This document shows positions 24,572 to 42,751 of a stretch of 64,000 nt of DNA, one piece after another. Position 1 is the first letter of the stretch, and each line of letters starts with the position of its first letter. The notes beneath the pieces are model-generated. The model had not been told where the DNA came from and did no database searches. It saw nothing but the letters and a program-made list of their open reading frames with translations. The position numbers and the translations under genes are program-made. The DNA comes from an uncultured Bdellovibrio sp. (GTDB lineage: Bacteria; Bdellovibrionota; Bdellovibrionia; Bdellovibrionales; Bdellovibrionaceae): NCBI GenBank assembly GCA_963932905.1, contig CAWVRN010000013.1, positions 32,001 to 96,000 on the forward strand, read 5' to 3'.

Positions 24572-24672
24572 ACCTTAGGGTACTTTACGATTATGCAGAT
24601 CGCATTTCCCAACGCAGTGTGTATTGTTTGATTTCCAAGCAACTCAAATCTAGCGTGTTATTTATATTGGCT

Positions 24673-25512
24673 ATGTCTTCAAATATTTCTATTCAAAATT
24701 TCCTATCACAAAAATATATTTTTGAAGAAAGATATAACCTAAATAAACGCCCGGAACTAATTCGACATTATTCAACTTTAAAGAGTGAAGCCGATAAATT
24801 GTTTTTCAACCAAACTATAGATTTTTCAAGTCTTTCATTCTATGCAAATAGCCAAAATTCAGATATTTGCCAGTGGTTTCTAAAAAATATTTCGACTGAA
24901 GCTCACTATTATGACTTTTCAATTCCTATGAGCCCCATTACACCTCTCGATTTCTATTTCGACGTTAGTCCCATAAATCACCGCCCTTGGAAAATGATAT
25001 TGTTTATTTACAGTCCGTATACCTGCGACTCCCATGGACCTCTTACGCACCCTACTCATGTACAAAAATTTTTTCAGGAAAAAGAGGAAGAATACTTACC
25101 CAAATCTTTCTTTATTGAAGATCTCGAACTTGGTTGGATTTGCTATGATGATTTCGACACATTTACTTTTGTCCATCATATTCAACTGAAGGGGAAACTT
25201 AAAAGCCTGCTTAACAACTACGATTTGAAATGGTTTTACAGATTTATGGCGCGAAGCTTACCACATTTTTTCTCAAAAAAAACAAATCCCATCATTATCC
25301 CCACGGCTTCCATGTACGATAAACTGATGAAACGGGCTACCAAAAATTCTGGAATCTGTATTCAACCATACAGCGAACGAATACTGGGAAGTTCGGGTTT
25401 TAAAAAAATAGACAGTCAAATATTTGATCTTCATTTTCCCGGAGAGCTCAAAAAAATGATTTTAAATAAATATCTCACTCCAAGTGAAATTGAGTTTTGG
25501 AGATATCCTTAA
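24673..25512 (+). CDS. Hypothetical protein
   Basis: Long ORF; start moved to the ATG at 24673 to avoid overlap with the divergent gene. Confidence 0.55.
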   Translation: MSSNISIQNFLSQKYIFEERYNLNKRPELIRHYSTLKSEADKLFFNQTIDFSSLSFYANSQNSDICQWFLKNISTEAHYYDFSIPMSPITPLDFYFDVSPINHRPWKMILFIYSPYTCDSHGPLTHPTHVQKFFQEKEEEYLPKSFFIEDLELGWICYDDFDTFTFVHHIQLKGKLKSLLNNYDLKWFYRFMARSLPHFFSKKTNPIIIPTASMYDKLMKRATKNSGICIQPYSERILGSSGFKKIDSQIFDLHFPGELKKMILNKYLTPSEIEFWRYP

Positions 25513-26286: not shown

Positions 26287-27231
26287 ATGAAAAAACTTAT
26301 AGTGAGCGTAAACCCATCCTATCTTTGCAACTTAAAATGCAAGTTCTGTTATTTGACGAAAGAGCAACTTAGCGACCCACATAAGTTAGATATAAAAACC
26401 CTTGAACACAAAATTAAAGATTTAGCTGATGTATTTGAAATTACCAAGTTTGACTTATATGGCGGGGAATTTGCCGTTTTACCGCTGTCCTATCAAAATG
26501 ATGTAGTTTCAGTGTTACAGCACTATGCGCGTGACAAAGTAAACATAATTACGAATTTGACTAAACTCAGCGATATTTTTTTTGATGAAGCGTTGGATAT
26601 AAGCGTGAGCTTTGACTTTTCTGCGAGAGAACAACATGAACTAGTTTTAAAAAATATTGGATTTCTAAATCGTCCTATTTCCATACTTATGCTAGCGTCA
26701 CCGGATTTGATGAAACTCGATCATGAAATGATGATTCAAACATTTAATATTTTTAGAAACATTATCAGTGTAGAAATTAAGCCTTACTCGACGAACCAAG
26801 CGAATGCCTTAAGTACTAAATTTAGCTCTTTTGAAGAATTCGTAAAAAAATGGATTTCTGCAAAAACAAAAAAAAACTTCTCGTTTGAAAATGAAAATCG
26901 CATTCAAAAAAGTTTAAAAAGATCTTACTCTGCTTTTTCCGATGATCATATTTACATCACTCCTTCTGGAAAATACGCAGTATTGGAATTTGACAAAGCC
27001 GACAACGAATTCTTTCTTGAGCTAAATTCCATTGAAGACTATTTAAATTGGTGCCAGCAGGAACCAAATAAACTGACTCCCATCTGTCAGTCTTGTGAAT
27101 ATTTGGGCAATTGTTTAACAGAGCATTATCGACAAGTAAAATCCTTGGAAAACAGCTGCAATGGTTTTAAATTCTTACTGGATTGGTATCGAAATGAAAA
27201 AATGGAAAATAAATCAGCAGATTTATCATAA
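26287..27231 (+). CDS. Radical SAM protein with C-terminal Cys cluster
   Basis: CNLKCKFC, YGGE and CQSCEYLGNC...CNG. Confidence 0.88.
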   Translation: MKKLIVSVNPSYLCNLKCKFCYLTKEQLSDPHKLDIKTLEHKIKDLADVFEITKFDLYGGEFAVLPLSYQNDVVSVLQHYARDKVNIITNLTKLSDIFFDEALDISVSFDFSAREQHELVLKNIGFLNRPISILMLASPDLMKLDHEMMIQTFNIFRNIISVEIKPYSTNQANALSTKFSSFEEFVKKWISAKTKKNFSFENENRIQKSLKRSYSAFSDDHIYITPSGKYAVLEFDKADNEFFLELNSIEDYLNWCQQEPNKLTPICQSCEYLGNCLTEHYRQVKSLENSCNGFKFLLDWYRNEKMENKSADLS

Positions 27232-27607
27232 ACTCACAGACAAACATTCGGACGACTTAAACACCTTAAGCATACGTTATGATAGCAATATTGCCAAATC
27301 GACGGTTTCCTATTTTCGAGGAAAAACGACGGGTCTAGTTTATCCCGCTAAAAGCTATTTCGTGGGAATTTGTTACGCCAAATGGATACAGCAAGACTTT
27401 GGAGATAGTTTTAAAGACAACCTAGACGATGCGGAGCTTTTATTCAAAAATGACCCTTACTTTAAACGGTATTCAGAAGCAAAAGATGTTTATGACCAGA
27501 TTCTTAGTATCGTTGGGCTTAACTTCGATGAATCGGTAGGTATTATTCCCGTGGTGCGACAATATTACCTAAATGAAATTCAACTCAAAGGATTTGATAA
27601 TCCATAA
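27194..27607 (+). CDS. Hypothetical protein coupled to the radical SAM gene
   Basis: Overlaps the end of the radical SAM gene; start taken at MKKWK. Confidence 0.6.
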   Translation: MKKWKINQQIYHKLTDKHSDDLNTLSIRYDSNIAKSTVSYFRGKTTGLVYPAKSYFVGICYAKWIQQDFGDSFKDNLDDAELLFKNDPYFKRYSEAKDVYDQILSIVGLNFDESVGIIPVVRQYYLNEIQLKGFDNP

Positions 27608-29726: not shown

Positions 29727-30646
29727 AAAAGCTATTTTTTGTATGTTTTTCGGTTGTTATAATGATACTTCTTATCTGGACATTAAGTCCAAACCCTAGC
29801 AATTTGGTTATAACGCAGCAACAGGTAAAGGAACTTTCACCTAACCAACCACCTCAGGTTGACCATGTCAGGTTTCACAATATTATCTTAACTGAGAAAA
29901 ATGAGTGCGGGCAAACCCGAGAAAGCACTATTAGGGTATTTGATTTAGTATTTTTTGCTCCTCTGGAATTGACTAGGGACAAATTGAGAATCATCGTCAC
30001 AGAAGAGGTATCGGGCAACCAGCAAGAGATTTTTTTTGATGGAAACTCATTTTTGTATAAAAAATTAAATGCCAATTCCGATGTCCAAGACTTTGGAGTT
30101 CCTGAAAAATGCATAAGCCGCGATCCGTGTCCATTTTTTGTCAAAGTAAAACCCGAATATTGGAAAAATTTGAAAAGGGAAGTTCGGTTTTCCGTGAATA
30201 TATTTAACTCAAACAACCAATCCGAACCTGCACTGGTAAAAAAATATGACACAGAAGAGAATCAATTTTTAACTTCTTTTGCCGCCCCTCGAAACGAAAT
30301 CAGTGTTTTGTCTTCATTTGATCCAAAGACAAAGACAGTTTACGCTTATTTACCTAAAACCCCCGTCATTGACCAATTGAATAAAAGTACTGAGCTGTAT
30401 TTGGTCATACAGACAAAGAACAAAGTAGAGCAAAATTTTCTAGATAAATTTGAGTTCGATGTAAACCTTTTTGGACTAGAAAAGCGCATACGTGGAGACA
30501 ATTTTGAATACAAGACTAAGATAAATTCATCAGACCCTGCTTACCTCAATACAAGCTTTTATATGATTAGAAAAAACTTGTCCGAGGCCCACAGCGTAAT
30601 TTCTATAAACAAATCTGATCCATTTTTCAATTGTTCACAACAGTAG
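29723..30646 (+). CDS. Membrane-anchored hypothetical protein (family B, divergent)
   Basis: ATGA overlap; N-terminal TM helix; KNECG and terminal FFNC motifs. Confidence 0.65.
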   Translation: MKKLFFVCFSVVIMILLIWTLSPNPSNLVITQQQVKELSPNQPPQVDHVRFHNIILTEKNECGQTRESTIRVFDLVFFAPLELTRDKLRIIVTEEVSGNQQEIFFDGNSFLYKKLNANSDVQDFGVPEKCISRDPCPFFVKVKPEYWKNLKREVRFSVNIFNSNNQSEPALVKKYDTEENQFLTSFAAPRNEISVLSSFDPKTKTVYAYLPKTPVIDQLNKSTELYLVIQTKNKVEQNFLDKFEFDVNLFGLEKRIRGDNFEYKTKINSSDPAYLNTSFYMIRKNLSEAHSVISINKSDPFFNCSQQ

Positions 30647-31667
30647 ATCGATCGATGTATGCAAAAGTTGCTTTAAACGGACAGTCCGCGGTGCTTGCGC
30701 GTTTTGTAAAGCTATGCTTTACAAAACAGCCCAAAGTGCATCGATTAAAATACTTACACTCTAGGCAATTGTATTTTTCCATAAAATTCATTTCCACAGC
30801 ACTGTTGTCATTTGATTCAATTACGACGTCAAATAGCGGCGATACAGATTTGTTTTGTAAAATCAAATTACCACATTTACATTCGGTTCCATCACCAAGT
30901 AAAAGTTTTGAACTACGACAAGACATCGTATTATAGGAATTTTCAATCCATTCCCTGATGGGATTTACTTTTGGAAAGTTATCTACAAGGTATTTAAAAA
31001 ATACAACCAAATCATCATCATTTGGCATCATTAGCTGGTAATCATCTGCCGGAGAATAATAGTCAAAATAGATATAAAAGTTTTTTTCGTACAAATATTC
31101 AAAATATCGATCGCCAGAGTTCAACATCAAACTTATAAGTGGCTTCGTAATAAGCATACTAATACAACTAATTTCGTCGGAAAAAAATTCGACGTTGCTT
31201 TTAAAAAGTTCAAAATTGCTGTGACTAAAGCGCCCCCTCGGATCATAAGATGTGACCAGGTTATATGCGATGTTATTCTTTTTAAGATCGGCGAAGAGAG
31301 CCCGTATTTGGCTCTGTCTATTATTTACTAAGTTTGAAACAAAATTGAAAACTACTTTTTTATTGTTCTTCCGAGTGAATCTATCGACTTCGTCGCAGAG
31401 GTAAAAATAGTCACTTTGCAAATTTTCGTCAAATAGGTCATCGGCAAAAATCTCGCCACCCATTATATTTATTGTAAATTCAAACCGCTCGTCTTTATCC
31501 AGCATTGCGATTAACTGTGGTACTTTATTTCTAACTTCGGCTACCCCTTTTAACGCAGAATGATCTTGCCAACAAAACTTACAGGCCAAGTTACACTTTT
31601 CAAATAGGTGCAAGGTGTACTCTTGATTGGGGCTTCGTTTGTTTTTCAAAACAAAATCGCTTATCAT
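30627..31667 (-). CDS. Radical SAM protein with SPASM/twitch-like C-terminus
   Basis: CNLACKFC, MGGE and CLECKYFNRCTLGC...CP. Confidence 0.88.
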   Translation of the reverse strand: MISDFVLKNKRSPNQEYTLHLFEKCNLACKFCWQDHSALKGVAEVRNKVPQLIAMLDKDERFEFTINIMGGEIFADDLFDENLQSDYFYLCDEVDRFTRKNNKKVVFNFVSNLVNNRQSQIRALFADLKKNNIAYNLVTSYDPRGRFSHSNFELFKSNVEFFSDEISCISMLITKPLISLMLNSGDRYFEYLYEKNFYIYFDYYSPADDYQLMMPNDDDLVVFFKYLVDNFPKVNPIREWIENSYNTMSCRSSKLLLGDGTECKCGNLILQNKSVSPLFDVVIESNDNSAVEMNFMEKYNCLECKYFNRCTLGCFVKHSFTKRASTADCPFKATFAYIDRSTVVNN

Positions 31668-32710
31668 AGTCGAACCTCAGGTTGTCTCTTTTTTACAAGA
31701 ACATTTCCGGCTTCTTTTTTATTTATTTCGATTACTTTTTTTGCTATCTCTTTCATTCCCGAACAGTGGCGTTCTATCGAGTCGTGTTGCTTCAGGTCGT
31801 GGATTGTTTTTTTACATCCGTTGCAAATATTAAACATCGGACATGTGTAACATTCAATTTTAAGTGCATTCAGTTCCGTCTGATTTAGAAGAGGTCGATG
31901 GACATTGACATCTGACATTTCCTGCTCAAAAGAAATGGGATAAAGTCGGTCATCCGCAAATGCCCCACAACTATAGTAGTCACCGGATGGCTGCAAACAT
32001 CGAATATTAGAATCGCAATTGCGATTCTGAGGGCACGTTTGATGACGTCCTGAAAATCTTTGCATCATCTGTTTAGTGTTGTATTCCCAGGGCCATAGTT
32101 CCATTTCATATATTTGCACATATATCTTATAGATTTTGGACAAAATATAGGGCTTTATTTGATCCCCGCTGGCCATCGCATAGTTCAGCTTACATTCGAC
32201 ACCCATCTGCTTAGCTAGTTCGACATTTTTAATTGCCGTGATATCGTTCTCATCGGTGATCACGGAAATGAAATCGGGTCGATAACCTACCTCATTTAAA
32301 AATAAGTCACTGACTCCCCAAAACATGGGTTCAGTATAAACTAAATCTTTTGTTATTCTGCGAGTGTCACCGAAATTAAAAGAGGTTGTAACTGAAACAC
32401 GATGATTTTTAAATAACGGAGCCCACCTAGACGGACTATTTTTAAAAGCCCACAGATTTGAGGTAAAACTTATTGAAGTCGACATTTTTTCCTGATCTAG
32501 AAATTCGATTATTTTCCAATAATAACCAGGATCTACCATCAGTGGATCTCCGCCATTAACAATTATGCTTCCCGTTTCTGGAAAACGTTTTAAAAAAGAA
32601 AATATCGTTTCTAAATCTAAGATTTTAGATTTTTCATCTGTAATATTTGTACTTGAGCAGAAAGTACATTTAAAATTGCATCGCTCAGTTGGTTTTATTA
32701 TTAATTCCAT
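31664..32710 (-). CDS. Radical SAM/SPASM protein
   Basis: IKPTERCNFKCTFC, NGGDPL, GDYYSC and CYTCPMFNICNGC. Confidence 0.9.
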   Translation of the reverse strand: MELIIKPTERCNFKCTFCSSTNITDEKSKILDLETIFSFLKRFPETGSIIVNGGDPLMVDPGYYWKIIEFLDQEKMSTSISFTSNLWAFKNSPSRWAPLFKNHRVSVTTSFNFGDTRRITKDLVYTEPMFWGVSDLFLNEVGYRPDFISVITDENDITAIKNVELAKQMGVECKLNYAMASGDQIKPYILSKIYKIYVQIYEMELWPWEYNTKQMMQRFSGRHQTCPQNRNCDSNIRCLQPSGDYYSCGAFADDRLYPISFEQEMSDVNVHRPLLNQTELNALKIECYTCPMFNICNGCKKTIHDLKQHDSIERHCSGMKEIAKKVIEINKKEAGNVLVKKRQPEVRL

Positions 32711-33804
32711 CAGTAGTTAAAGTTTCCGTATTTGTAAAAGTTGTCATTTACCGTTTTAAATCCTGCCCTAGGAGCCAGACAATCTTTATAGTCTAGTTTT
32801 TCCATCAAATAATGCATTCCCCGCCCCACACAGTTTGAGGCGTATTCGCACCCAGCACATTCTGTGGTTTTTTCAATGTATTTCAATGAATCAACCATCA
32901 TGCGATTCTCGAACTCTACAATTGTATTATAGTTCCATACGGTGTCAGCTCCCAAACCGGCATCGTCTTCATACACAATTAAAGGCTCTCCCAAAAATAC
33001 GGTAGAATATAAATTTCCATTTTTATAGACGTAATCTTTATCGTAGCCCTCATACCTTTTCCCGTAATTAAAGTTCACCTCTTGGCTCTTTTCTTCAATT
33101 ACCGCTTTTTCAAACAGCAGATTAAGATACTTGATTAGGTGGAGAACCTTTTTTTTATTCTCAGGTATCGTCAGAGGCAATCTACCTTCCGATATGACCA
33201 AATCAAGATGACCTTCTGGCCAAATTTGGTTAAAATACTTCGAAAAATCATGAAATTGATAAAGTGGATCATGCTCCTTCTGATATTCATGTAAATTTAC
33301 TATGTTGTACACGTGACCAAACTCACAGTTTGGAATAATACTTTCGAAGAGTTTAATTTTTTCTTTGATACCATTTAAATACTTTTCGTTCCTTAAGTGT
33401 TTGGGCTCTAACGGAACAGTCCATTTAACACGACGGCCAGATAAAATAGGCTTTAATTTATTCGCCCAGTATCTAACGACTTCATGATCTGCTAAAAAGG
33501 TAGAATTTAATACCAGGTTACGAAAATAATCCATCATAGGAATAATGTCTTTATTAAGAATTTCATCGGTATTGCGAGCACTCATAAAATCCGTGGCGCC
33601 AACAGCCAAATTTATCAAGACATGATTGTTATCCTTAAGATCCTGAAACAAATCCATAAGTCGTCTGAAATCATTTCCAATAAATCCGTTAGCGTCGTCT
33701 TTGTTGATACGACATCCTGTACACTTCCACTTACAACCGCTCAAAACCTCTAAATTTATATCAACTAAAAAGTGGGATTGGTAATTAGCCAAGATTTCCT
33801 CCAA
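32710..33804 (-). CDS. Divergent radical SAM-like protein
   Basis: CKWKCTGC and C-terminal CAGCEYASNC...CLAP; lacks the GGE motif. Confidence 0.72.
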   Translation of the reverse strand: MEEILANYQSHFLVDINLEVLSGCKWKCTGCRINKDDANGFIGNDFRRLMDLFQDLKDNNHVLINLAVGATDFMSARNTDEILNKDIIPMMDYFRNLVLNSTFLADHEVVRYWANKLKPILSGRRVKWTVPLEPKHLRNEKYLNGIKEKIKLFESIIPNCEFGHVYNIVNLHEYQKEHDPLYQFHDFSKYFNQIWPEGHLDLVISEGRLPLTIPENKKKVLHLIKYLNLLFEKAVIEEKSQEVNFNYGKRYEGYDKDYVYKNGNLYSTVFLGEPLIVYEDDAGLGADTVWNYNTIVEFENRMMVDSLKYIEKTTECAGCEYASNCVGRGMHYLMEKLDYKDCLAPRAGFKTVNDNFYKYGNFNY

Positions 33805-34855
33805 ACGCTCGATTAACTCGCGCTGAATGATAAAATTTTAATTCTTCCGGATTTTTAAAAAAAGTCGTCGTCGCAAAATCTATAAAATAGTTGTTCAAAG
33901 TTAGACCAAATTTAGATTGCCCTATGAAATTTCTAATTCGGCTATTTAAATCTAAATCTAAAATAGCGTCTATAGAAATATCGAAATTTAACTTTAACCA
34001 TTCAAAGGCAACGTCCAAAAGTGGATTCGGCAAGTACTGTCTTACCTTCGACAACTCCCGCTGAATATCTTTGATATCATAGTGAGACTCTAAAAAATTA
34101 TTTCGATTGACCGCCACCTGTCCATCCATCATAAACTTTAAAAAATTTTCGCTGTAACGTTCTGCATGTTTAGTCATCTCGTCTATGAAAGAGTAACTGG
34201 ACAGCAGTTCAGCTCGCAAATCTAAAAGTAATAAAACTTGTGTTTCTTGAAGATCTTTCGTCAGTTGCTTCTTTGTTCCTTCCGGGAGTGGCATTTTTGC
34301 AGAGATATAATCAACATAGGCATTCTCAAAAGGCAGAATATGCCAATAGTCAAACCGATCTCCGAAAATACCTCTGTTGGATTTTTTTATTGTTTTAGGC
34401 CGCGATGCCTGAACAAATTTATCTATTTTATGAGCCAAATCCTTAGTCAGATTCCCGGCTGCCGTTCGGCTCCTTAGCAGTCTATATTCATATCTATCTA
34501 GTACCATTTGAAATAAAAAGTTGGCCCGAGACTGATCGATATCCGGCATCATGCTAAACACCCAGTCACTGTATACAGCTATAAAATTCTCTACATCACA
34601 GTAGATGATCGTTTGACCTTCAGATTTAATCAAATTACTCCAAAATACACTTAATCCATCAGAGTTTGAACTAACAAAATCAATATAAGAATCTTGGCTG
34701 TAAACGACGTTACCAAAGATTAGTCCTGTTAAATTCTTTTCCTCTTCTGAAAAAACACTCCAGCGATTCCCCGCCTCACCAAAAAACACCAAGTTTTGAC
34801 TGTTTCGTATATCAAAATCAGGAGCCAGAAAAACGTTACCGACTAAGTTAATCAT
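33785..34855 (-). CDS. Hypothetical protein (island paralog family A)
   Basis: MINLVGNVFL...IIYCD...LNNYFIDF; overlaps both neighbours. Confidence 0.7.
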   Translation of the reverse strand: MINLVGNVFLAPDFDIRNSQNLVFFGEAGNRWSVFSEEEKNLTGLIFGNVVYSQDSYIDFVSSNSDGLSVFWSNLIKSEGQTIIYCDVENFIAVYSDWVFSMMPDIDQSRANFLFQMVLDRYEYRLLRSRTAAGNLTKDLAHKIDKFVQASRPKTIKKSNRGIFGDRFDYWHILPFENAYVDYISAKMPLPEGTKKQLTKDLQETQVLLLLDLRAELLSSYSFIDEMTKHAERYSENFLKFMMDGQVAVNRNNFLESHYDIKDIQRELSKVRQYLPNPLLDVAFEWLKLNFDISIDAILDLDLNSRIRNFIGQSKFGLTLNNYFIDFATTTFFKNPEELKFYHSARVNRAFGGNLG

Positions 34856-35930
34856 TCAGCGCCAACTCTGTTAATTCAAAGCCGATATTTTGCAACTCGG
34901 TAGCGGCGTTTTCCATTAAAAACAATAAATATGGATTCAAGTACTCGCGAACTCTTAACGATTTTAGAATTTTAGCTGAAGCTACTTTTTCTTTACTTTT
35001 GGTTAGAATTTCTAAAGTAAAAAATGGAGATGATCGATCAAGAAACACATTTTGAAAAATTGGCGCATATTCATTGTACTGCAATTCCAAGGCTTGCAGA
35101 TGGATTTTACTGTTATCAAATTCAAATAGCAGCTTATAAATTTCAGGGGCGAGCCTTGCAAGTTCATTACGTCGATTTTTCGACCAAGAAATCTGATCGA
35201 TTCCAATCATTTTCTCAATTCTATAATAAGAATCTATCAAAGGCAGCACAACGTCCTCTTCAAATTCTGTCAGACTTCCTACATTCAAAGTATTGAGTGT
35301 ATTCAAAAGCATACCTTGCGAAGGTTTAAAATCACCATTTGTATAGTAATTTACAAAAAACAAATCTAAATTAACTTGATCATACAGTTGCGTCTTGATC
35401 TTCTGATTTATTCTCCAAGCAAATGTATTTTCCCATATGAGTTTAATAAAACCAGCCGAAACGACCTGATGAATTTGATCGTGCAATTGTCCGCTAAAAC
35501 TATGGACAGATATTGACGATTGATTGCCGGCGTTTCCATCAATAAACTTTATCTTTTTTAAAAAAATGTTGATCAAAAAATCAAATGCTTCAAATCCCAT
35601 GTTAGGCAAAATTGTCTTAAACAATTTTGCTTTTAAATAAACCATATTTTCAATATCGCTGAAAATAAAAAGCAAATTGGGTTCTGAAGATTCAATCATC
35701 CATTCAACAAACGCGCTGTCGTCATTTTTGAATTTTTCTTCGACAAACGACCACAGCTGAGAACAACCAAATCGCTGCTTCGAATTGTCTAATTTTAGAC
35801 CGTTTAAGCCTCTGGAAGGGTCAAATCCACGTGCATAGGATTCGTATTCTTTAAAAATTCCTAAATGATTCGCGTTTACATCGAATTCAACAAAATTTTT
35901 TAAAAACACCTTACCAAACAATTGATACAT
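34848..35930 (-). CDS. Hypothetical protein (island paralog family A)
   Basis: MYQLFGKVFL...FIFSD...LNPYLLFL; operon-coupled. Confidence 0.7.
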   Translation of the reverse strand: MYQLFGKVFLKNFVEFDVNANHLGIFKEYESYARGFDPSRGLNGLKLDNSKQRFGCSQLWSFVEEKFKNDDSAFVEWMIESSEPNLLFIFSDIENMVYLKAKLFKTILPNMGFEAFDFLINIFLKKIKFIDGNAGNQSSISVHSFSGQLHDQIHQVVSAGFIKLIWENTFAWRINQKIKTQLYDQVNLDLFFVNYYTNGDFKPSQGMLLNTLNTLNVGSLTEFEEDVVLPLIDSYYRIEKMIGIDQISWSKNRRNELARLAPEIYKLLFEFDNSKIHLQALELQYNEYAPIFQNVFLDRSSPFFTLEILTKSKEKVASAKILKSLRVREYLNPYLLFLMENAATELQNIGFELTELALND

Positions 35931-35933
35931 AAA

Positions 35934-36710
35934 TTAGCTGACCGTAATGCGATCAAGCTCTTTACCTACCAGGTCTATTTGCTGTTCAGTGAACGCCTTT
36001 TTCAAAACTGCGCCTACGACAGCGTAGAGTTCGGGGCTTGATTGCATGGTTTCAGCAAACAAATTTTTTCCGTTATAAAAAAACTCTTCAAATTGAGGTT
36101 TAAAATAAAAAGCGGTCGTAGTTGAAAAAGTTCCGAAATAATTTATATAAAACATAGGCATTTTCAATAAATTCACGAAAGTAAAACCGGTGAATTCCAT
36201 ATCGTCAACAACGGAAAAATGAGCTTCCGGAGGTGAACCTAAATCTCGAAATTCTTTGGAGCAGGTGTATATAAAGGTAGGAATACTATCAAGAAGCACG
36301 ATAAGCCGAAGCATATTATTCATTCGATCTGCGTCTTCCAAATAGTCCCGAACTCGCTCTCTAGAGATTAATGAGTAGGTGTCTAAAATCTGTTGTTCCG
36401 CTTCAGACAACTCGATCCCTTTAATTTCAGCCAGAATTCGAACAATCGAAAATTTTATATTCACCAAATCTATTGTCGATTTAAACGTGACATAGCTATC
36501 AATTAAAGAGAAAAAATCATCTTCAATACTATTTGATTTTTCAAAATAAACATTCGCCACATTAATGTTGCTTAAATAAATCAACAGAGCGCGGTCTTTG
36601 ATTTGACATGCTTTATAATCACCAATGACTTTTAAATCAGGATTGGCGATAACTAATTTCAAGTCATCCATACTAAGCGGAAACTTAGTTCGTAATTCCA
36701 TTGTACTCAT
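35934..36710 (-). CDS. Hypothetical protein translationally coupled to the candidate substrate
   Basis: ATGA overlap with 36707-37354; 258 aa. Confidence 0.7.
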   Translation of the reverse strand: MSTMELRTKFPLSMDDLKLVIANPDLKVIGDYKACQIKDRALLIYLSNINVANVYFEKSNSIEDDFFSLIDSYVTFKSTIDLVNIKFSIVRILAEIKGIELSEAEQQILDTYSLISRERVRDYLEDADRMNNMLRLIVLLDSIPTFIYTCSKEFRDLGSPPEAHFSVVDDMEFTGFTFVNLLKMPMFYINYFGTFSTTTAFYFKPQFEEFFYNGKNLFAETMQSSPELYAVVGAVLKKAFTEQQIDLVGKELDRITVS

Positions 36711-37354
36711 CGGCGCCCCCTAGCGCCATGACAGCTGCCATGGCACGAAGAATGGCACCACGTCTCTACAAAAACTATCGGATTAGCGGCTCTATCATTT
36801 GCTAAATGCAAAGCTAGAGCATCGATGAAAGCAATAATCGGTTGAGATTCCACCCACGAACCAACCCCAGGAAAAGCAGGCCCGATCCCGGCATAATTGA
36901 CGACATCGAAATTCAAATGAATTTGCCCGGCCATAGGCCCATATTGATTAACCATAGTTCCAAAGTTATTATAATTTTTTTGAATTGTATAATTGCGATA
37001 ACGACTAAGCGTTGAGAATACAGTTCTAATAAAACCCGCCACACTGGCTACCGAAACTCGCTGAGCCACATCAACGCCAGCAGCCTGAATTTCCGCGCTC
37101 GTCACCGCAGTGCGAACGGTTTGACCTGCGCCTAACTGACTAGATCCATCTCCCGTCGCCACACCATTTCTAGTTGTGCTGCTATAACTACCAGAAATGG
37201 GCCTATTGTTTACAAAAGGATTGTTATTAGGATCACCGCCGGGACTTCCGCTGTGAGTTTTGCTTGCTGCATTTATAGCCGCCACAGTTATATTAAGTTG
37301 ATCGCGAATTTGATCTCTAAATACCGCATCAATTCTGGTTCCCCGAGCCCCCAC
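36707..37354 (-). CDS. Candidate radical SAM substrate/structural protein with C-terminal (CHxx)3-RGRR tail
   Basis: Gly/Ala/Ser/Asn-rich body; all three Cys lie in the tail WCHSSCHGSCHGARGRR; AGGAG RBS before GTG; lies among radical SAM genes. Confidence 0.7.
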   Translation of the reverse strand: MGARGTRIDAVFRDQIRDQLNITVAAINAASKTHSGSPGGDPNNNPFVNNRPISGSYSSTTRNGVATGDGSSQLGAGQTVRTAVTSAEIQAAGVDVAQRVSVASVAGFIRTVFSTLSRYRNYTIQKNYNNFGTMVNQYGPMAGQIHLNFDVVNYAGIGPAFPGVGSWVESQPIIAFIDALALHLANDRAANPIVFVETWCHSSCHGSCHGARGRR

Positions 37355-37363: not shown

Positions 37364-38521
37364 CTATTCTTTGCCTACAAATTTATTCAGCATTTTTCTA
37401 TATAGGTTGATATCATTTTTTTCTTTTAATTCTTGCATTAACGTCTTGGGCGAGGCACACAGATCCCCCTGCCACGCTAATTGATGACAATCGCCATTAC
37501 ATACATCAAATACGTCACAGGAATAACATATCGGATTTCTTTGAACCTCACACAATATATTTTTCGAACGTCCCGGCGACGACAATAACTCAGGAATAGG
37601 CATAGATAGATGAGCATATGGCTGAGTTGCGGCTGAATTCGGACACCCACCAATGCTGCCGTCCGCGTTCAAAGTGAAAATTTTTTGTTCACAACCCCGA
37701 CATCTACACCCCGTATGGGCTCGATTAACCAAACTAGTTAAAATTGAATTAAAAAACAAATTTGTAAATTTTGTATAAGACTCTAGCTTTACCGTTGCCC
37801 GCCAAAGTTTCAAAAACCAATCGTCCAATTCTTTATTTGTTGGAATGACACCCTGATTAACAAGCGCATTACCATTTGGGGTAATTCTTTCTAGATGCAA
37901 ATACTGAACACCCAAGTCAGCAAACCATTTTAAAAAATCTTCGACATCCATTTGGATAACATCTTTGGACAAACTGATCATAACAGTGACTTCGTGGCCA
38001 TCCTGAAGAAGCGTATTAACATTTTTTCGCCAAAGAGTCTCTTGATGTTCTGACTGAAAACGAATGCCTCTATCCCAAGAGGTCGCAATACCTTGGGAAA
38101 ATGCCGTTTTCATAAACTGTCGTTTTTCATCATCAAGGTTATAAACCAAATTCGTGGTAGCCGACCACCAAACGTTTGGCCACAAATTGCGACAGCTATT
38201 CCATACTTTATACATAGAAGAAATTGGTGCCAAAAATGGCTCTCCTCCATGAAAGGCCACATGACCATTTTTCAAGTGTGGAACAACTTGGTGAAATCTA
38301 TGAAACCAATCAACCACAGCATCTGGGTCAAAAAAAATCTTTTTTCCGTTTTTGCCACTAGTGAAACAATGCGAACAGTTTAGCTGGCAGGTTTCCGTTG
38401 TCTTTAGATAGACCATCAAATCAGAGACCCTTAAAAACGAAGACAGGTTAAGGCCACGCTTAATTTGCGGATCAACAGAACGGTCATTAAAACTTGAGGA
38501 CGTATCTTTTAATTCTATCAT
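37364..38521 (-). CDS. Radical SAM/SPASM peptide- or protein-maturase-like enzyme
   Basis: LKTTETCQLNCSHC, FHGGEPFL, DGSIGGCP and CYSCDVFDVCNGDC...C. Confidence 0.92.
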   Translation of the reverse strand: MIELKDTSSSFNDRSVDPQIKRGLNLSSFLRVSDLMVYLKTTETCQLNCSHCFTSGKNGKKIFFDPDAVVDWFHRFHQVVPHLKNGHVAFHGGEPFLAPISSMYKVWNSCRNLWPNVWWSATTNLVYNLDDEKRQFMKTAFSQGIATSWDRGIRFQSEHQETLWRKNVNTLLQDGHEVTVMISLSKDVIQMDVEDFLKWFADLGVQYLHLERITPNGNALVNQGVIPTNKELDDWFLKLWRATVKLESYTKFTNLFFNSILTSLVNRAHTGCRCRGCEQKIFTLNADGSIGGCPNSAATQPYAHLSMPIPELLSSPGRSKNILCEVQRNPICYSCDVFDVCNGDCHQLAWQGDLCASPKTLMQELKEKNDINLYRKMLNKFVGKE

Positions 38522-38609: not shown

Positions 38610-39578
38610 TTAGTTAGCATTTAATCGGCCTTCCAGAAGATTTATTTTTTTTATCAACTCTTGCCGTTTAATATAAACTTGCTTGTGATACTCCCATAGT
38701 ACCGGAATGACTGCTGAATAATTTAATGTAGAAATGCCAGTGGGATTTGACACGCCCGCATAGGGTAAATCCTTTAGAATCTCTTGAGCAATAAAGCCTA
38801 GATGCTGTCCTTTATAGTTTTTGAGCTTGTACCTGTAACCATGAATGGATTCAAAGGTCTGGCCACTGACCGCGATTTTTTTGATGTCAGTTTTCAGAGA
38901 CACGTCGGAAGCATTACCTAGGTGATTCACCCGCAAATTAGGTGCTGTGGCTGCCGGAAAAGCTTCATCAACCAGGACTTCTCCACCGATTTCCACATTG
39001 CCTTCGAAGGTTATGTCTCCTTGTTTAGTTTCAGCTCCATTTATGCGAATAAAGGAATTGCTTAGTACCATCGCGGTCGCACTACCACATGTTGTTACCC
39101 TGCCTAAGCCATCGATCGTGCCCTCAAGAGGTATATGCAGAGTCATTTGTCTGACTCCCTGGCCCTTATTGTATCCATACGTGACAGCGATATTAAACGT
39201 GACATTTGGCGCCGCAACAATAAGATCGGACACCTGCGCACCTATTACGTCCACCGTTCCGTTATTCAAGTCATTTAATGGAAAGGTCAACACCACACCA
39301 TTAGCACCATCACGGATAGTGGGAATATTTTGACCGTTAGCAAGAGCGCCCGCTGTCGCGTTAAACGTATTCAAACAACCCGTTTGTTGATTAAAAAGAC
39401 TGTCCATATTTAAATGCAAGGGCGCTATAAATCTTTCCGATCTAATTAACTGAAGCTCTTCCATAGTTGAAATGTAGAGCTGAGTTGTAGAAAAAATAAT
39501 TCCGGCCAAAAGAGCAACACCCACAAGCAGTTCTGTGAGCGAAATACCTCGCTGATTTCCAACAAATTTAATTTTCAA
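38610..39578 (-). CDS. Type IV prepilin-like protein fused to a C-terminal Peptidase S74-like intramolecular chaperone
   Basis: QRG|ISLTELLVG prepilin motif (TTG start at 39578); SDVSLK...GFIAQEI...LNYSAVIP plus coiled coil. Confidence 0.8.
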   Translation of the reverse strand: MKIKFVGNQRGISLTELLVGVALLAGIIFSTTQLYISTMEELQLIRSERFIAPLHLNMDSLFNQQTGCLNTFNATAGALANGQNIPTIRDGANGVVLTFPLNDLNNGTVDVIGAQVSDLIVAAPNVTFNIAVTYGYNKGQGVRQMTLHIPLEGTIDGLGRVTTCGSATAMVLSNSFIRINGAETKQGDITFEGNVEIGGEVLVDEAFPAATAPNLRVNHLGNASDVSLKTDIKKIAVSGQTFESIHGYRYKLKNYKGQHLGFIAQEILKDLPYAGVSNPTGISTLNYSAVIPVLWEYHKQVYIKRQELIKKINLLEGRLNAN

Positions 39579-39579
39579 T

Positions 39580-40191
39580 TTATTTAACTTTAACCCAGTG
39601 GCGGCCATTAACATCTACCTTCTTTTTTTCCGTTCCAAATATCGTATCGAATTCGGGTTTTTTATAAATAGCCAATAAGCGCTCAGGAAATTTTAACTTT
39701 TCTTCAGTCGTCATTTCACTCAAAATGCCCTCTTCATTGTTTGTCAGCGGTGTACCTGGCTCATATGTATTGTCTACATAGGCCAACACCCAACCACTGA
39801 CAGCGATTGGCACCTGCCGCTGACTCGGATAACGCCCTTGCCCGACAGCAAATCCAAAAGTATCCGAAGCAATTCCTATCGCACTTTTTTGACATCGTTG
39901 ATTGCATATTTTGGCGCCGTCAAATGTGTCATAATAACATTTTCCAAACACGATTTCATCACATACCAGCTGAAAATCTGCTATATCATTCCAGACAGCT
40001 CCCCAAACTTTTTCAGCGGCAAACTCTCCAGAAGCAGCACCACCAAGCGCTGTAGTGACAACTAAATCCACTCCCCCAGCAGCCACAGTTACGACTCCAG
40101 AGCCATCAATGTTACAGGTTTTAATAGTGGCCGCGGATTGAGCTTGCTGACCTATGAAAAGAGTGTGTATCAGTTGGGAAAGTTTTTGCAT
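39580..40191 (-). CDS. Phage tail-like protein with a peptidase G2-like autocleavage/chaperone domain
   Basis: KVWGAVWNDIADF...IGIASDTFGF...VPIAVSGWVLAY...GTPL...WVKVK. Confidence 0.55.
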   Translation of the reverse strand: MQKLSQLIHTLFIGQQAQSAATIKTCNIDGSGVVTVAAGGVDLVVTTALGGAASGEFAAEKVWGAVWNDIADFQLVCDEIVFGKCYYDTFDGAKICNQRCQKSAIGIASDTFGFAVGQGRYPSQRQVPIAVSGWVLAYVDNTYEPGTPLTNNEEGILSEMTTEEKLKFPERLLAIYKKPEFDTIFGTEKKKVDVNGRHWVKVK

Positions 40192-40200
40192 GCTGATCTC

Positions 40201-41241
40201 CTAGTTACTTTTAATCCTTAGTTTGGTTTCTATTTTGTCTAATCGTTTTTCTAACTTCCTATTTTCCTTTGACATATTTTTATAAGACTCATGAAGAATA
40301 GGTACAAATCCCGAATAATTGACCGTCTTTTTACCATCAGTTTTTCGAGCAGAAACAAGCTGAGGCAGAACTTTTTCAACATCCTGAGCAATGAAGCCAT
40401 AGTCTCGCCGTCCATCTTGTTTCCATGAAAACTCTTTCCCTTCAATTAAAGAAAAAACTTCATCGAAATTTACTAAAAGAGGTTTGATGTCCGATTTAAA
40501 ACGCCTATCCGACAAAGTGTAAACTCCACCATAGGATCGTATCGATCCAGACTGTGCTGGATTTCCACCACCACCAGCCCAAGCAACCACGTTCATATTT
40601 CCTTCTATTGTCAAACTACCCTGCTTGGCTGTGCTATCATAACGATCACGCTGCACATAAGCGTTCGGATCATATCCAAAACCTGCCGATGTCCCCGCAG
40701 TACAACGATGGTAAGTATTCTGATCTAGAGCATTGTAATCTGGTACCAAGCGCTGACCTACTGCCGTCGGCACCGTAGTTCTAATTGTAATCACTCGATC
40801 CATGTTTCGAGTCGTCCCGCCTGTTCCGATTGGCACGCGATAGCGAATATTTAAGTCAAAACTACCGGTGTAGGGCAATGGCGCACCCGCGGCCGGATTC
40901 TGCAGAAAATTAGTCGCACGCATCCGAGTAATCGAAATGTTTTGATAGTAAGGCCCACCAGCAGTCGCATACAGTACCGTGTTAAATGAGTTTCTTATGC
41001 TCGCAATATTTGTAAACAGTGCCGCACGATTAATCCCGGTAAAGGTATTGTAGCATCCATTAGGGTTGGTTAGGGCCAACAATATGTGAGCATGAAGTTC
41101 TTCAACATTTAAAGTTAACCGAGTTTCCAAGAAATGCTTCTGAGTCGCCATTAGTAATGCTGAAATTAGCAAAGTCACTAAGGCAAGCCCACCGACATAT
41201 ACAACAAACTCTATCAAGGTAAACCCACGCCTATTCATCAC
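40201..41241 (-). CDS. Type IV prepilin-like protein fused to a Peptidase S74-like chaperone
   Basis: RRG|FTLIEFVV; SDRRFKSDIKPL...FSWK...GFIAQDVEKVLPQLV...VNYSG plus coiled coil. Confidence 0.85.
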   Translation of the reverse strand: MMNRRGFTLIEFVVYVGGLALVTLLISALLMATQKHFLETRLTLNVEELHAHILLALTNPNGCYNTFTGINRAALFTNIASIRNSFNTVLYATAGGPYYQNISITRMRATNFLQNPAAGAPLPYTGSFDLNIRYRVPIGTGGTTRNMDRVITIRTTVPTAVGQRLVPDYNALDQNTYHRCTAGTSAGFGYDPNAYVQRDRYDSTAKQGSLTIEGNMNVVAWAGGGGNPAQSGSIRSYGGVYTLSDRRFKSDIKPLLVNFDEVFSLIEGKEFSWKQDGRRDYGFIAQDVEKVLPQLVSARKTDGKKTVNYSGFVPILHESYKNMSKENRKLEKRLDKIETKLRIKSN

Positions 41242-42352
41242 GTCCTCCGCTGGTCTTACCAGTGACAGGACCCAGTTTTCGGTCAGCTAAAGATTCGAGC
41301 TGCTGAATTTTTCTTTCTAACTTAATATTTTGCTGATCGATTGATTTAGTGGCCTCAAGTAAGATTGGCAATAGGGCCTGATAATCAACACGTTTAATTC
41401 CGGTGCCTTCATCAGACGAAACCACTTCTGGAAAAATAGATTCAACTTCCTGGGCGACAAAACCAATGTCTTTACGCTGTCCCTCTTTCCATTGAAATGA
41501 GTAGCCATTCAACGTCATTAGGTCTTTTGGTTTAATCACTAAAGGCTGCATATTTTGCTTAAGTTTTTTATCGGATATTGTAAAAACCCCACCCTGGACG
41601 CCTAAATCACCACCGACACTTAGGTTTCCTCCGGTCATTCTAAATACAAATCCTTGAGGTTCGTCAGCAGTGTTTCCCCTTGCATCTGTAGTCATTTTAG
41701 ATTTGGTGTCAATTCCTGTCTTAGAAAGATAATTGGCAGGATTAAAGCCAAACGAGGTGCCGTTTTCGGGAGCAGCATGACATCGCTCGGGCTGCTTCAC
41801 AACTGCGCTTCCTGCGGCCCAGGTGTTGGCCGGATTCGTTTCCGTTCGAACAATAAATCGACGAACTTTACTTATTGTCGAAGACGGCGAAACACGAACA
41901 AGATAATTTACTGTGACCCGAAAAAATCCTGTGAAAGGAGCCGGAACACCACCGCCAGCAGTAAATGTATCCGCAGTCATCGACGTAATCTGAATACTTC
42001 TATTGTAGAATGTATTAAGCACATAAACAGGGACTGGTACCGCAGGAGCTTGTGCGCCACTCATAATTTGATTAAAAGCAACCTGTCCTGGAGCAATAAC
42101 CATCCCGCTAAACGTATTGAAACAAGCATGCCTGTTCGACAAAGTAAAAACAATTTGAGCATGTAAATCGTCCACAAGAATATTACCACGAGTCTCGAAA
42201 AAAAAAGCTCGCGTAGATAAAATCGAATTGTTAATCGCTACGGAAACCACACCAAGAATTACCAAAGTAATCAAAATTTGAATAATGGAAAAACCCTTTG
42301 AATTGGATCTTTCAATAACTTTAAGAAGAATAAATTTAGACTTTTGTTTCAT
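41231..42352 (-). CDS. Type IV prepilin-like protein (Gln at +5) fused to a Peptidase S74-like chaperone
   Basis: SKG|FSIIQILITL; SDKKLKQNMQPL...FQWK...GFVAQEVESIFPEVV...VDYQAL plus coiled coil. Confidence 0.85.
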   Translation of the reverse strand: MKQKSKFILLKVIERSNSKGFSIIQILITLVILGVVSVAINNSILSTRAFFFETRGNILVDDLHAQIVFTLSNRHACFNTFSGMVIAPGQVAFNQIMSGAQAPAVPVPVYVLNTFYNRSIQITSMTADTFTAGGGVPAPFTGFFRVTVNYLVRVSPSSTISKVRRFIVRTETNPANTWAAGSAVVKQPERCHAAPENGTSFGFNPANYLSKTGIDTKSKMTTDARGNTADEPQGFVFRMTGGNLSVGGDLGVQGGVFTISDKKLKQNMQPLVIKPKDLMTLNGYSFQWKEGQRKDIGFVAQEVESIFPEVVSSDEGTGIKRVDYQALLPILLEATKSIDQQNIKLERKIQQLESLADRKLGPVTGKTSGGRDE

Positions 42353-42403: not shown

Positions 42404-42751
42404 ATGGAAAGAAGATTTTTTTTTAAATTCCTATCCGGCCTTACGATGTTTTCTGGTCTAGCAAGTTTGAAACAAGATTCATCTCATATTGACCCGTCTC
42501 CAAACGAGAAAAGACACCAAGTTTTTTTAAAGCCAGGGTCGAAGTATTACCTACCTGAAAATCCCAACCACATGGACTTCATAGTTTTTAGACTAACTGA
42601 TAGTTTTCAAACTAACCCGACTCAAGTCCATGCACATAAGCATAAACTTATCGGCCAGAACGAACCCTTGTTAGTAGACTACGATACAGATTTTGGTCTT
42701 AGGTTTTTAGGCGACCAAACTGGATGGGTACTTGTTCGACTTGAGTCTTGA
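42404..42751 (+). CDS. Small protein with a twin-arginine-like signal and a phage baseplate/tail-connector-like domain
   Basis: MERRFFFK followed by a hydrophobic stretch; LPENP...D...F.TNP..V....LIG...L.F.....GW pattern. Confidence 0.5.
   Translation: MERRFFFKFLSGLTMFSGLASLKQDSSHIDPSPNEKRHQVFLKPGSKYYLPENPNHMDFIVFRLTDSFQTNPTQVHAHKHKLIGQNEPLLVDYDTDFGLRFLGDQTGWVLVRLES

What the first reader, a model, noticed from the sequence alone, without database searches (positions are those of the whole stretch)
36707..37354. 215-aa protein ending in WCHSSCHGSCHGARGRR: probable substrate of the radical SAM enzymes
Seen: the only three Cys of the protein form a period-4 repeat (CHSS, CHGS, CHGA) at 36707-36760, followed by a basic RGRR end. 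The gene lies 9 bp downstream of a SPASM enzyme. Known: His-Xaa-Ser repeats mark the HxsA-type rSAM substrates; aromatic-X-X motifs are cyclised by triceptide maturases; Cys residues are used for sacti/ranthipeptide thioethers. Inference: the tail is a RiPP-like core carried on an unusually long, structural-looking body rather than on a short leader. Alternatively it is a Cys/His metal site in an oligomeric fibre tip.
Basis: partly seen in the sequence, partly recalled or inferred. Interest (0 to 1): 0.88.

Follow-up and report, generated by a model that had tools for sequence, protein, structure and literature searches.

The report
Radical-SAM-tailored fibre protein in predatory bacterium
A bacterium that looks like a predator of other bacteria carries a phage-type gene kit whose iron-sulfur enzymes probably cross-link the histidine/cysteine tail of a small structural protein that goes with phage-like surface fibres; this chemistry has not been tested in any virus or predator.

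Summary
The protein has a folded body and belongs to a family whose near-constant feature is a 16-residue C-terminal tag: 99 of 123 viral pattern hits, and 16 of 401 genomes of this phylum. All 71 loci with flanks carry related radical SAM enzymes; 67 carry a dedicated partner. The homolog gp170 of phage Atu_ph07 is a virion protein that peaks in the top gel band at 32 kDa (non-reducing gel possible). His-x-Ser/Asn is more constant than Cys, and glycine never occupies the acceptor position, which favours His-to-C-beta cross-links. It is a structural subunit with a modification tag, not a classic RiPP precursor and not an HxsA. In this phylum the kit sits beside pilin-anchored S74 fibres, a G2-like fibre gene and a twin-arginine protein. 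A different Cys-repeat kit fills the same slot in 7 genomes. Modification is inferred, not shown. This scan noted the same cassette earlier on other, phage DNA.

The parts
36707..37354 (-). Tag-bearing structural protein, 215 aa. Folded alpha/beta body (about 1-200) plus C-terminal tag; no signal peptide or membrane helix
   Evidence: (pLDDT 75.7; tag region about 52); phrog_35144 match limited to residues 195-215, E 6.5e-4; 69 of 75 family members match phrog_35144
36710..36757 (-). 16-residue tag (C-H-x-S/N/A)x3 + R-x-R-R, the putative modification site
37364..38521 (-). Radical SAM enzyme A with SPASM-like Cys motif; candidate first maturase
   Evidence: phrog_1802 E 1e-61; 55% identical to Atu_ph07 gp171, 39-44% to RSL2/RSF1/FLC/DT01 enzymes; below all NCBIfam cut-offs
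35934..36710 (-). Dedicated partner 'P258', 258 aa, translationally coupled to the tag gene; candidate chaperone or scaffold
   Evidence: phrog_20767 E 8e-26; 67 of 71 loci; 16 of 16 tag genomes; model pLDDT 91.6
33785..35930 (-). Two partner proteins (33785-34855, 34848-35930) of a family found in 47 of 71 loci
   Evidence: profile E 2e-17 and 5e-7
32710..33804 (-). Divergent radical SAM enzyme B with intact CxxxCxxC
   Evidence: phrog_31457 E 8e-24; motif
30627..32710 (-). Radical SAM enzymes C (31664-32710) and D (30627-31667)
   Evidence: phrog_1802 E 4e-53 and 2e-39; motifs
26287..27607 (+). Radical SAM enzyme E (26287-27231) and small conserved partner (27161-27607)
   Evidence: phrog_1802 E 2e-35, phrog_20737 E 2e-39; both recur in the phage cassettes
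25541..28845 (.). Three 2OG-Fe(II) oxygenase-like genes: 25541-26158 (-), 27673-28281 (+), 28294-28845 (+)
   Evidence: Pfam; same families in phage cassettes
20694..22571 (-). B12-binding radical SAM enzyme (methyltransferase-like); optional member of the cassette
   Evidence: Pfam and NCBIfam; family in 15 of 82 clustered loci
22641..25512 (.). Three unknown proteins (22641-23501 -, 23498-24571 -, 24535-25512 +) with homologs in related cassettes
   Evidence: clustered with L001 and L031 genes; no Pfam or NCBIfam hit
38610..42352 (-). Three fibre genes (38610-39614, 40201-41241, 41231-42352): pilin-like hydrophobic N-terminus and C-terminal S74 chaperone
   Evidence: Peptidase_S74 above cut-off, N_methyl weak and below cut-off; tail-fibre PHROGs; hydrophobicity
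39580..40191 (-). 203-aa Peptidase_G2/IMC-like fibre or chaperone protein; marker of the fibre module in this phylum
   Evidence: ESM Atlas viral clusters, feature score 0.95, TM 0.66-0.80; 22 of 401 genomes
42404..42751 (+). 115-aa protein with a conserved twin-arginine (RRxF) N-terminus; candidate export adaptor
   Evidence: RR invariant in 11 of 11 aligned; 17 of 395 genomes, each within 3 kb of the G2-like gene

Best explanation
The 215-aa protein is a structural subunit of a fibre or appendage. Its folded body is the building block, and its last 16 residues are a tag rebuilt in the cytoplasm by the co-encoded radical SAM enzymes, with P258 and the helical partners as helpers and the oxygenases and B12 enzyme as optional tailoring. 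The most likely core reaction is H-abstraction at the C-beta of the Ser/Asn/Ala two residues after each His, followed by a His-to-C-beta cross-link as in His-type triceptides. Cys thioethers, possibly between subunits, are likely further steps. In phages the product is built into the particle. In this lineage the kit was taken from phages and coupled to pilin-anchored S74 fibres, a G2-like fibre protein and a twin-arginine protein, probably to make a hardened or metal-loaded surface adhesin. Shown: sequence, conservation, gene linkage, predicted fold, virion presence of one homolog. Inferred: that the tag is modified (about 0.85), that the protein stays whole and structural (about 0.75), His-directed chemistry (about 0.5), export by Tat piggy-backing (about 0.3), a role in prey adhesion (about 0.4).
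For: Tag fixed while the body drifts: mean column identity 14%, invariant columns only C200, H201, C204, H205, H209. 32 of 34 phmmer hits end in the tag; the other two are long multi-stretch matches. 4 of 4 non-self hits of a body-only profile carry it. Radical SAM genes lie in 71 of 71 flanked loci and P258 in 67 of 71; the four without end shortly downstream. Tag and P258 share 16 of 16 genomes; the 17th P258 genome holds a short degenerate tag gene in the same slot. Gly at His+2: 0 of 361 (pattern-found) and 0 of 135 (homology-found); Gly at His+1: 65 and 39. 7 of 32 homologs lack the third Cys but keep three His, and G327 keeps one Cys with four His-x-Ser. Triceptide synthases link His C2 to the C-beta of residue +2 (PMC11499958). 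HxsB/C-dependent +8 Da on SHRSS shows that a protein's His-x-Ser can be radical-SAM-matured (PMC13128918). Atu_ph07 gp170 (homolog: BLAST E 1e-6; a 296-aa Atu_ph07 model matches by fold, E 5e-3, probability 0.94) is in the virion with 8 peptides, most abundant in band 1 at 31.9 kDa, while the cassette's enzymes are not listed. The cassette directly follows fibre or baseplate genes in phages. Some homologs are fused to a glycine-rich PF21722 domain. 14 of 16 tag genomes hold the G2-like gene, 13 of them on the same contig within 16 kb.
Against: No modification has been measured. The Atu_ph07 loading buffer as printed has no reductant, so disulfides or an SDS-stable oligomer could explain band 1; two other 32-36 kDa proteins with 1-2 peptides also peak there. 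FLC6's annotated virion list does not include the gene after its enzyme gp71 (annotation by similarity). Six radical SAM enzymes and three oxygenases are many for 16 residues, so some may act on something else. G141's tag has a single C-H-x-N and a short body, so three His are not essential. The pattern scan forced CHx3 and two Arg, kin are not independent, the neighbourhood profiles were built from the same loci, and the body-only hits are close kin of aligned members. Three 504-660 aa Myoviridae proteins match the body by fold (E < 1e-3), and I could not read their C-termini. The protein has no signal peptide. 2 of 16 tag genomes gave no G2-like match (fragmented assemblies).
Confidence: 0.62

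Rival explanations
1. The enzymes do act on the tag, but to build a metal site (Cys/His converted to a chelating heterocycle or cofactor), not to staple it; the fibre then carries Cu, Zn or Fe.
For: Three Cys-His pairs in 12 residues. Oxygenases and a cupin are frequent in the cassette (cupin 47 of 71). Weak match of enzyme A to the thio(seleno)oxazole maturase SbtM model (32 vs 350 bits).
Against: Cys can be lost (7 of 32 lack the third; G327 keeps one). The strict exclusion of Gly at His+2 is predicted by C-beta chemistry and not by metal binding. The window has no cupin match.
Confidence: 0.13
2. HXS-like role: the matured basic tag (His-x-Ser repeats plus RxRR) binds DNA or blocks a competing phage, giving superinfection exclusion in phages and defence in the bacteria.
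For: HxsA uses basic HxS repeats, matured by two radical SAM enzymes and a small partner, to bind DNA and stop phage entry (PMC13128918). The cassette is patchy (16 of 401) and mobile, as defence systems are.
Against: HxsB/HxsC models are far below cut-off (best 19.8 of 370 and 33.8 of 267.9 bits). No peptidoglycan-binding domain or signal. The homolog is a virion protein, and the genes sit in fibre modules.
Confidence: 0.1
3. Classical RiPP: the body is an oversized leader and the 16-residue core is cut off and released as a peptide.
For: C-terminal core, many tailoring enzymes, tandem copies in some loci, and one short-bodied variant.
Against: No protease or transporter family recurs in the cassette. 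The body has a conserved fold and displays variable inserts or fused domains. The body is found in virions.
Confidence: 0.08
4. The tag is an unmodified Cys/His metal or disulfide clamp in a fibre oligomer, and the enzymes work on another substrate (a sugar, cofactor or nucleotide).
For: Non-reducing gel possible. Earlier scan notes read other phage/Bdellovibrionota radical SAM islands as sugar-tailoring (unchecked).
Against: The tag was not seen without the enzymes (71 of 71). The gene is coupled between enzyme A and P258. The best NCBIfam matches of enzymes A, C, D and E are mostly peptide maturases. No glycosyltransferase family recurs in this cassette.
Confidence: 0.07

Closest known systems
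HXS antiphage system (HxsA, HxsB TIGR03978, HxsC TIGR03977, HxsD; Li et al. 2026, PMC13128918)
   Same: A folded protein of about 200 aa, not a short peptide, with His-x-Ser repeats and basic residues, encoded with radical SAM enzymes and a small partner; modification maps to a His-x-Ser.
   Different: Here the repeats are at the extreme C-terminus, mostly preceded by Cys. The enzymes are another family (phrog_1802), five or six in number, with oxygenases. No peptidoglycan-binding domain or signal. Context is phage fibre modules, and a homolog is in virions.
His-type triceptide synthases HaaB (HAA), YhhB (HNR), HtkB (HTK) (PMC11499958)
   Same: His-x-X motif with a C-beta-bearing residue at +2, and SPASM-type enzymes.
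   Different: Substrate is a 126-541 aa folded protein with no leader. Enzymes are far below the YhhB, AmcB, XyeB, FxsB and GrrM cut-offs. Cys precedes His.
CXXX-repeat radical SAM system (TIGR04115 maturase)
   Same: Cys every fourth residue beside radical SAM genes.
   Different: Enzyme A scores 18.1 of 350 bits; the tag protein hits no NCBIfam target model; His-x-Ser/Asn is more constant than Cys.
Bdellovibrio MAT fibres, S74 subgroup (Caulton et al. 2024, PMC10769870)
   Same: Phage-tail-fibre-like proteins ending in an S74 chaperone in a (probably) predatory bacterium.
   Different: The neighbours here are 334-373 aa with a pilin-like N-terminus, not about 1,000 aa with a signal peptide and a 130-aa beta domain. 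No radical SAM link was seen in the passages read.
PHROG families phrog_35144, 1802, 20767, 31457, 20737; Atu_ph07 gp165-172, RSL2 ORF066-081, pPa_SNUABM_DT01 PA10_00054-67
   Same: Same cassette and similar gene order; these are true homologs.
   Different: Annotated only as hypothetical, radical SAM or oxygenase. Here the cassette is chromosomal, lacks the cupin and follows pilin-anchored fibres.

Membership tests
HXS system | HxsB (TIGR03978) and HxsC (TIGR03977) maturases above cut-off | tested here: not met
   Best scores among the window enzymes: 19.8 of 370 and 33.8 of 267.9 bits
HXS system | Effector with His-x-Ser repeats | tested here: met
   H-S-S, H-G-S, H-G-A in the tag; Ser at His+2 in 292 of 361 and 103 of 135
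HXS system | Peptidoglycan-binding domain and periplasmic export of the effector | tested here: not met
   No Pfam or NCBIfam hit; no hydrophobic N-terminus, maximum 0.63
HXS system | Antiphage activity; +8 Da modification | not testable with these tools
   Needs bench work
Triceptide (three-residue cyclophane) RiPPs | Aromatic-x-X motif with C-beta at position 3 | tested here: met
   His+2 is never Gly: 0 of 361, 0 of 135
Triceptide RiPPs | Maturase of a characterised cyclophane-forming family | tested here: not met
   Enzyme A: YhhB 23.9 of 445, AmcB 21.6 of 425, FxsB 20.2 of 370, GrrM 16.1 of 310 bits
Triceptide RiPPs | Short leader-core precursor released by protease | tested here: not met
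   Lengths 126-434 aa in 92 distinct full-length members; folded body; no recurring protease family
Triceptide RiPPs | Aromatic-to-C-beta cross-link in the product | not testable with these tools
   Needs MS/NMR
CXXX-repeat radical SAM system | TIGR04115 maturase and NCBIfam CXXX target models | tested here: not met
   18.1 of 350 bits; no NCBIfam hit for the tag protein at E 0.05
Sacti/ranthipeptides | PapB- or SCIFF-type maturase above cut-off | tested here: not met
   PapB 34.4 of 340 bits for enzyme A
phrog_35144 (unknown function) | Profile match | tested here: met
   69 of 75 aligned members match; the window protein itself only weakly, over residues 195-215
TssK / baseplate fibre-attachment folds | Structural match of the body | tested here: inconclusive
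   Top rows IglD Z 4.9 (rmsd 4.5, 104 aligned), Milano baseplate Z 4.7, TssK Z 4.4; all below the range the tool calls meaningful
MAT fibres (neighbours 38610-42352) | C-terminal S74 domain with SDxxxK | tested here: met
   Peptidase_S74 above cut-off in 3 of 3; SDxxxK present in the sequences
MAT fibres (neighbours 38610-42352) | Signal peptide followed by the conserved 130-aa beta-rich domain | not tested
   No MAT profile was built; the N-termini look pilin-like instead
Peptidase_G2/IMC (39580-40191) | Pfam PF11962 match | tested here: inconclusive
   No Pfam hit; Atlas feature score 0.95 and TM 0.66 to G2 clusters; phi29 pre-neck appendage E 0.14

The most novel reading that the evidence does not exclude
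Radical SAM enzymes polymerise or staple a structural protein through His/Cys cross-links between subunits, making a covalent fibre part in giant phages. Predatory Bdellovibrionota have repeatedly captured such kits into one fibre module (G2-like fibre, twin-arginine adaptor, pilin-anchored S74 fibres) that accepts at least two unrelated kits, export the pre-modified signal-less subunits by Tat piggy-backing, and use them as chemically tailored prey adhesins.
Probability: 0.25. Interest if true: 0.93.

Novelty: new variant of a known kind. Interest (0 to 1): 0.77.

Why it matters
Radical SAM peptide maturases are known for small natural products and a few protein effectors such as HxsA. If true, this extends them to building structural parts of virus particles and bacterial surfaces. 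It also gives a function to several widespread unknown phage families and offers five or six new enzymes acting on a portable 16-residue tag. It is directly testable: Atu_ph07 virion spectra can be re-searched, and the tag can be co-expressed in E. coli. For predator biology, it adds a second route, besides MAT fibres, by which phage adhesion hardware was domesticated, this time with its maturation chemistry and in interchangeable versions.

Tried and rejected
Prophage: rejected. The flanks are housekeeping genes (cytochrome c oxidase, FabG/FabH-like, SecA, BamE); none of the 33 flank ORFs scanned gave a phage Pfam family, and the same flanks occur in same-genus G400 at 59-96% identity. Trp-based cyclophane: rejected. 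Fold identity of the body: Foldseek PDB gave no match at E <= 0.001, the VIA wide search had best Z 4.9, the PDB sequence profile gave nothing under E 0.29, and the Atlas gave no usable hit; this shows neither a new nor a known fold. P258 likewise: none at E <= 0.001, best Z 4.1. Trimer prediction: no verdict, score 0.00, not evidence either way. RNA runs: none was listed. Homology of the 203-aa protein to the C-terminal domain of the phage fibre upstream of the cassette (Atu_ph07 gp176 family): not established (BLAST n.s., hhalign probability 45%); no tblastn match in phage records or viral contigs. A phage origin for the twin-arginine protein's mature domain is recalled only; no hit in PHROGs, Pfam, NCBIfam or my viral loci. 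Cultured relatives of two marine-type tag proteins: none. A body-only scan of viral contigs could not run. The promoter/terminator scan was at chance level. The Thermus 'rSAM module' (bioRxiv 10.1101/2024.08.14.607894) is a different three-gene DUF483 kit. The tree is the quick tree only; the careful search did not finish. Not in print as far as searched: ten full-text searches found no paper that describes the tag or the cassette's function. Subscription papers, including the original RSL2/RSF1 proteomics (recalled, not seen), and bioRxiv supplements were out of reach.
Full report
1. Observation. The ORF 36707-37354 (-) encodes 215 aa ending in WCHSSCHGSCHGARGRR, with its only three Cys in the tag. 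It starts 9 bp after the stop of a radical SAM gene (37364-38521), and its stop overlaps the start of a 258-aa gene (35934-36710). The coding pattern for CHxxCHxxCH occurs once in the window and in 0 of 100 shuffles. It is the only such tag in the genome.

2. Setting. The window is chromosomal: cytochrome c oxidase, FabG/FabH-like, SecA and BamE genes flank a low-G+C island (35-36% against 41-42%). The closest cassette is in Bdellovibrionaceae bacterium UBA2351 (enzyme 75% identical), so I infer Bdellovibrionota; this rests on a mobile gene set and on the S74 fibres. The island holds five related radical SAM enzymes with intact CxxxCxxC, a B12 radical SAM enzyme, three 2OG-Fe(II) oxygenase-like genes and several unknown partners. 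Upstream on the same strand lie three fibre genes with pilin-like N-termini and S74 chaperones, and a 203-aa Peptidase_G2-like gene. A 115-aa twin-arginine protein is encoded divergently. None of the enzymes reaches an NCBIfam cut-off; they fall in phage families phrog_1802 and phrog_31457, and the partners in phrog_20767 and phrog_20737.

3. The family. tblastn found the enzyme in 15 of 50,697 phage records: Atu_ph07, Phosso, the RSL2/RSF1/FLC group and DT01. In Atu_ph07, RSL2 and DT01 the next gene ends in the same tag. In 99 of the 123 the match is a C-terminal tag; the other 24 are simple repeats or off-frame and were dropped. Of the 99, 64 had long flanks; the other 35 had about 300 bases and were not tested for neighbours. 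With L001-L007 this gives 71 loci, a few of them duplicates of one contig or phage. All 71 hold a radical SAM gene; 67 hold P258 (the other four end shortly downstream), 47 a cupin, 47 the helical partner and 45 an upstream fibre-like gene of the Atu_ph07 gp176 family. The profiles were built from these loci and kin are not independent. Independently of the pattern, 32 of 34 phmmer hits end in the tag, as do 4 of 4 non-self hits of a body-only profile, though these are close kin of aligned members. The body drifts (14% mean column identity; 126-434 aa) but models as one alpha/beta domain (pLDDT 75.7, tag poorly defined). It matches other phage models by fold, among them a 296-aa Atu_ph07 protein, and it tolerates large inserts and an N-terminal glycine-rich PF21722 domain. 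No solved fold matched convincingly.

4. What in the tag is constant. His-x-Ser/Asn/Ala is the most stable unit. Gly is absent at His+2 (0 of 361 pattern-found and 0 of 135 homology-found His) but common at His+1 (65 and 39). Seven of 32 homologs lack the third Cys and keep three His, and G327 keeps one Cys. Three of 32 lack RxRR. The residue before the first Cys is Trp in only 13 of 159. Against strict His invariance, G141 has a short tag gene with a single C-H-S-N. Triceptide synthases join His C2 to the C-beta of residue +2 on HAA, HNR and HTK motifs (PMC11499958, passages), which needs a non-Gly residue there. The same residue is also Cys+3, so a thioether acceptor is not excluded.

5. Where the protein goes. 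In the Atu_ph07 virion proteome (PMC6102473: passages; part 3 of 3 of its supplement), gp170, the tag protein, has 8 peptides and 35% coverage. It is most abundant in band 1 although it weighs 31.9 kDa; proteins of that size mostly peak in bands 7-8, and band 1 otherwise holds mainly 76-139 kDa proteins (I infer from these masses that band 1 is the top). The upstream gp176 is in the virion too; gp165-169, gp171 and gp172 are not listed. Caveats: the printed buffer has no reductant, and two weakly covered 32-36 kDa proteins also peak in band 1. FLC6's similarity-based virion list omits the corresponding gene (PMC8066314, passages). The FLC6 and S13 papers only list the enzymes (PMC11898562, passages). 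A jumbo-phage survey has no occurrence of 'radical SAM' (PMC7824862, passages).

6. The bacterial version. Among 401 genomes of the phylum, 16 match the tag family, 17 P258 and 22 the G2-like gene. All 16 tag genomes have P258, and the 17th holds the degenerate tag gene. Fourteen of the 16 have the G2-like gene, 13 of them on the same contig within 16 kb. The twin-arginine gene occurs in 17 of 395 genomes, each within 3 kb of the G2-like gene; 9 of these supplied rows of the profile and 8 did not. Of the 8 G2 genomes without the tag, 7 (three genera) have an unrelated multi-radical-SAM kit with a Cys-repeat target beside the G2 gene; in the eighth the contig ends there. Same-genus G400 has the same site and fibre operon but a reordered cassette at 24-60% identity, while G349 shows none beside BamE. 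In the quick tree of enzyme A, the 12 bacterial copies need 4 changes, at least 2 forced by strong branches, and the two same-genus copies do not group. This fits repeated exchange with phages; the careful tree did not finish, so direction and number of transfers are not shown. The link to MAT fibres (PMC10769870, passages) is the shared S74 domain; membership was not established.

7. Mechanism. Most likely (0.62), the protein is a structural subunit whose C-terminal tag is cross-linked in the cytoplasm by enzyme A and its relatives, helped by P258. The likeliest first step is His to the C-beta of the +2 residue, perhaps followed by Cys thioethers between subunits, with optional hydroxylation or methylation. 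The product joins a phage fibre module or, here, a pilin-anchored fibre assembly. Because the tag protein has no signal peptide and iron-sulfur chemistry is cytoplasmic (established knowledge), co-export with the twin-arginine protein is my proposal for the route; it is untested. Rivals: enzyme-built metal site (0.13), HXS-like DNA-binding defence (0.10), released RiPP (0.08), unmodified clamp with another substrate (0.07).

8. Comparison. It works most like HXS, where two radical SAM enzymes and a small partner mature a His-x-Ser-repeat protein with +8 Da on SHRSS (PMC13128918: abstract, sections 9 and 11). It fails membership there on enzymes, domain and export. It also fails the triceptide, CXXX-repeat and ranthipeptide maturase cut-offs. 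A His-Xaa-Ser motif with unrelated enzymes has been noted before in another cluster (PMC9062424, passages). The Thermus phage 'rSAM module' is a different kit (bioRxiv 10.1101/2024.08.14.607894, passages; supplements not seen). Ten full-text searches found no description of this tag or cassette; subscription papers are not covered. Earlier notes of this scan describe the same cassette on phage DNA and mention predatory bacteria. They are unchecked notes, seen after I had reached this reading, and are not independent support.

9. Verdict. The feature is real and conserved, and the function is untested. It is a new variant of a known kind (radical SAM maturation of a His-x-Ser protein), applied to a structural protein of phages and captured into a swappable fibre module of this bacterial lineage. 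Interest 0.77; the boldest reading (covalent fibre polymer, domesticated as a prey adhesin) has probability 0.25 and interest 0.93.

Noticed in passing
L190, L191, L194, L197, L198, L199, L200 (G243, G273, G095, G351, G315, G058, G194): In 7 of the 8 genomes that have the G2-like gene but no CHxx tag, the adjacent slot holds a different multi-radical-SAM kit with a 150-190 aa protein ending in a Cys-x-Cys-Asn repeat; 5 of the 7 are one genus. The eighth (G354) has its contig end beside the gene.
   Followed up: partly
L169 and L195 (G400, same genus): Same chromosomal site and same fibre operon as the window, but the cassette has another gene order and only 24-60% identity, against mostly 82-96% for housekeeping flanks. 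Its enzyme A groups with G083 of another family. G349 (same genus, 99% complete) shows no cassette beside BamE.
   Followed up: yes
L193:about 10290-10610 (-) (G141): Short degenerate tag gene (about 105 aa) between enzyme A and P258, with one C-H-S-N and a final RSRR; missed by the family profile.
   Followed up: partly
L185/L202 (G327), L192 (G146), L187/L203 (G348): Natural tag variants: one Cys with four His-x-Ser; an extra Cys-Ser insertion; an interrupted repeat.
   Followed up: partly
P0036-P0041; P0006, P0020: Family members with an N-terminal glycine-rich PF21722 domain or large internal inserts, suggesting that the body displays variable binding domains.
   Followed up: partly
L005-L007, P0012, P0014, P0019: A clade ends in ...CHGSL/I without RxRR, yet (L005-L007) keeps the enzyme and P258.
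   Followed up: partly
window 28797-30646 (+) and 43891-46853: Unknown, probably exported proteins; 28797-29726 and 43891-44733 are paralogs, and homologs of 43891-45683 flank the cassette in G250 and L001.
   Followed up: no
window 20694-36710 and 42404-46853: G+C 35-36% against 41-42% in the flanks; the tag gene itself is 47%.
   Followed up: yes
G000 contig C31:41373-43568 (+): A fourth S74-bearing protein (about 730 aa, signal-peptide-like start) elsewhere in the genome, more like a classical MAT fibre.
   Followed up: no
L030, L068: Two 'viral' contigs whose enzyme A nests among the bacterial copies; they may be phages of these predators or misfiled bacterial DNA.
   Followed up: no
BFVD A0A8S5USJ7, A0A8S5USV2, A0A8S5USJ8 (Myoviridae sp. 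ctijX18): Three 504-660 aa proteins of one phage match the body by fold; their C-termini were not readable here.
   Followed up: no
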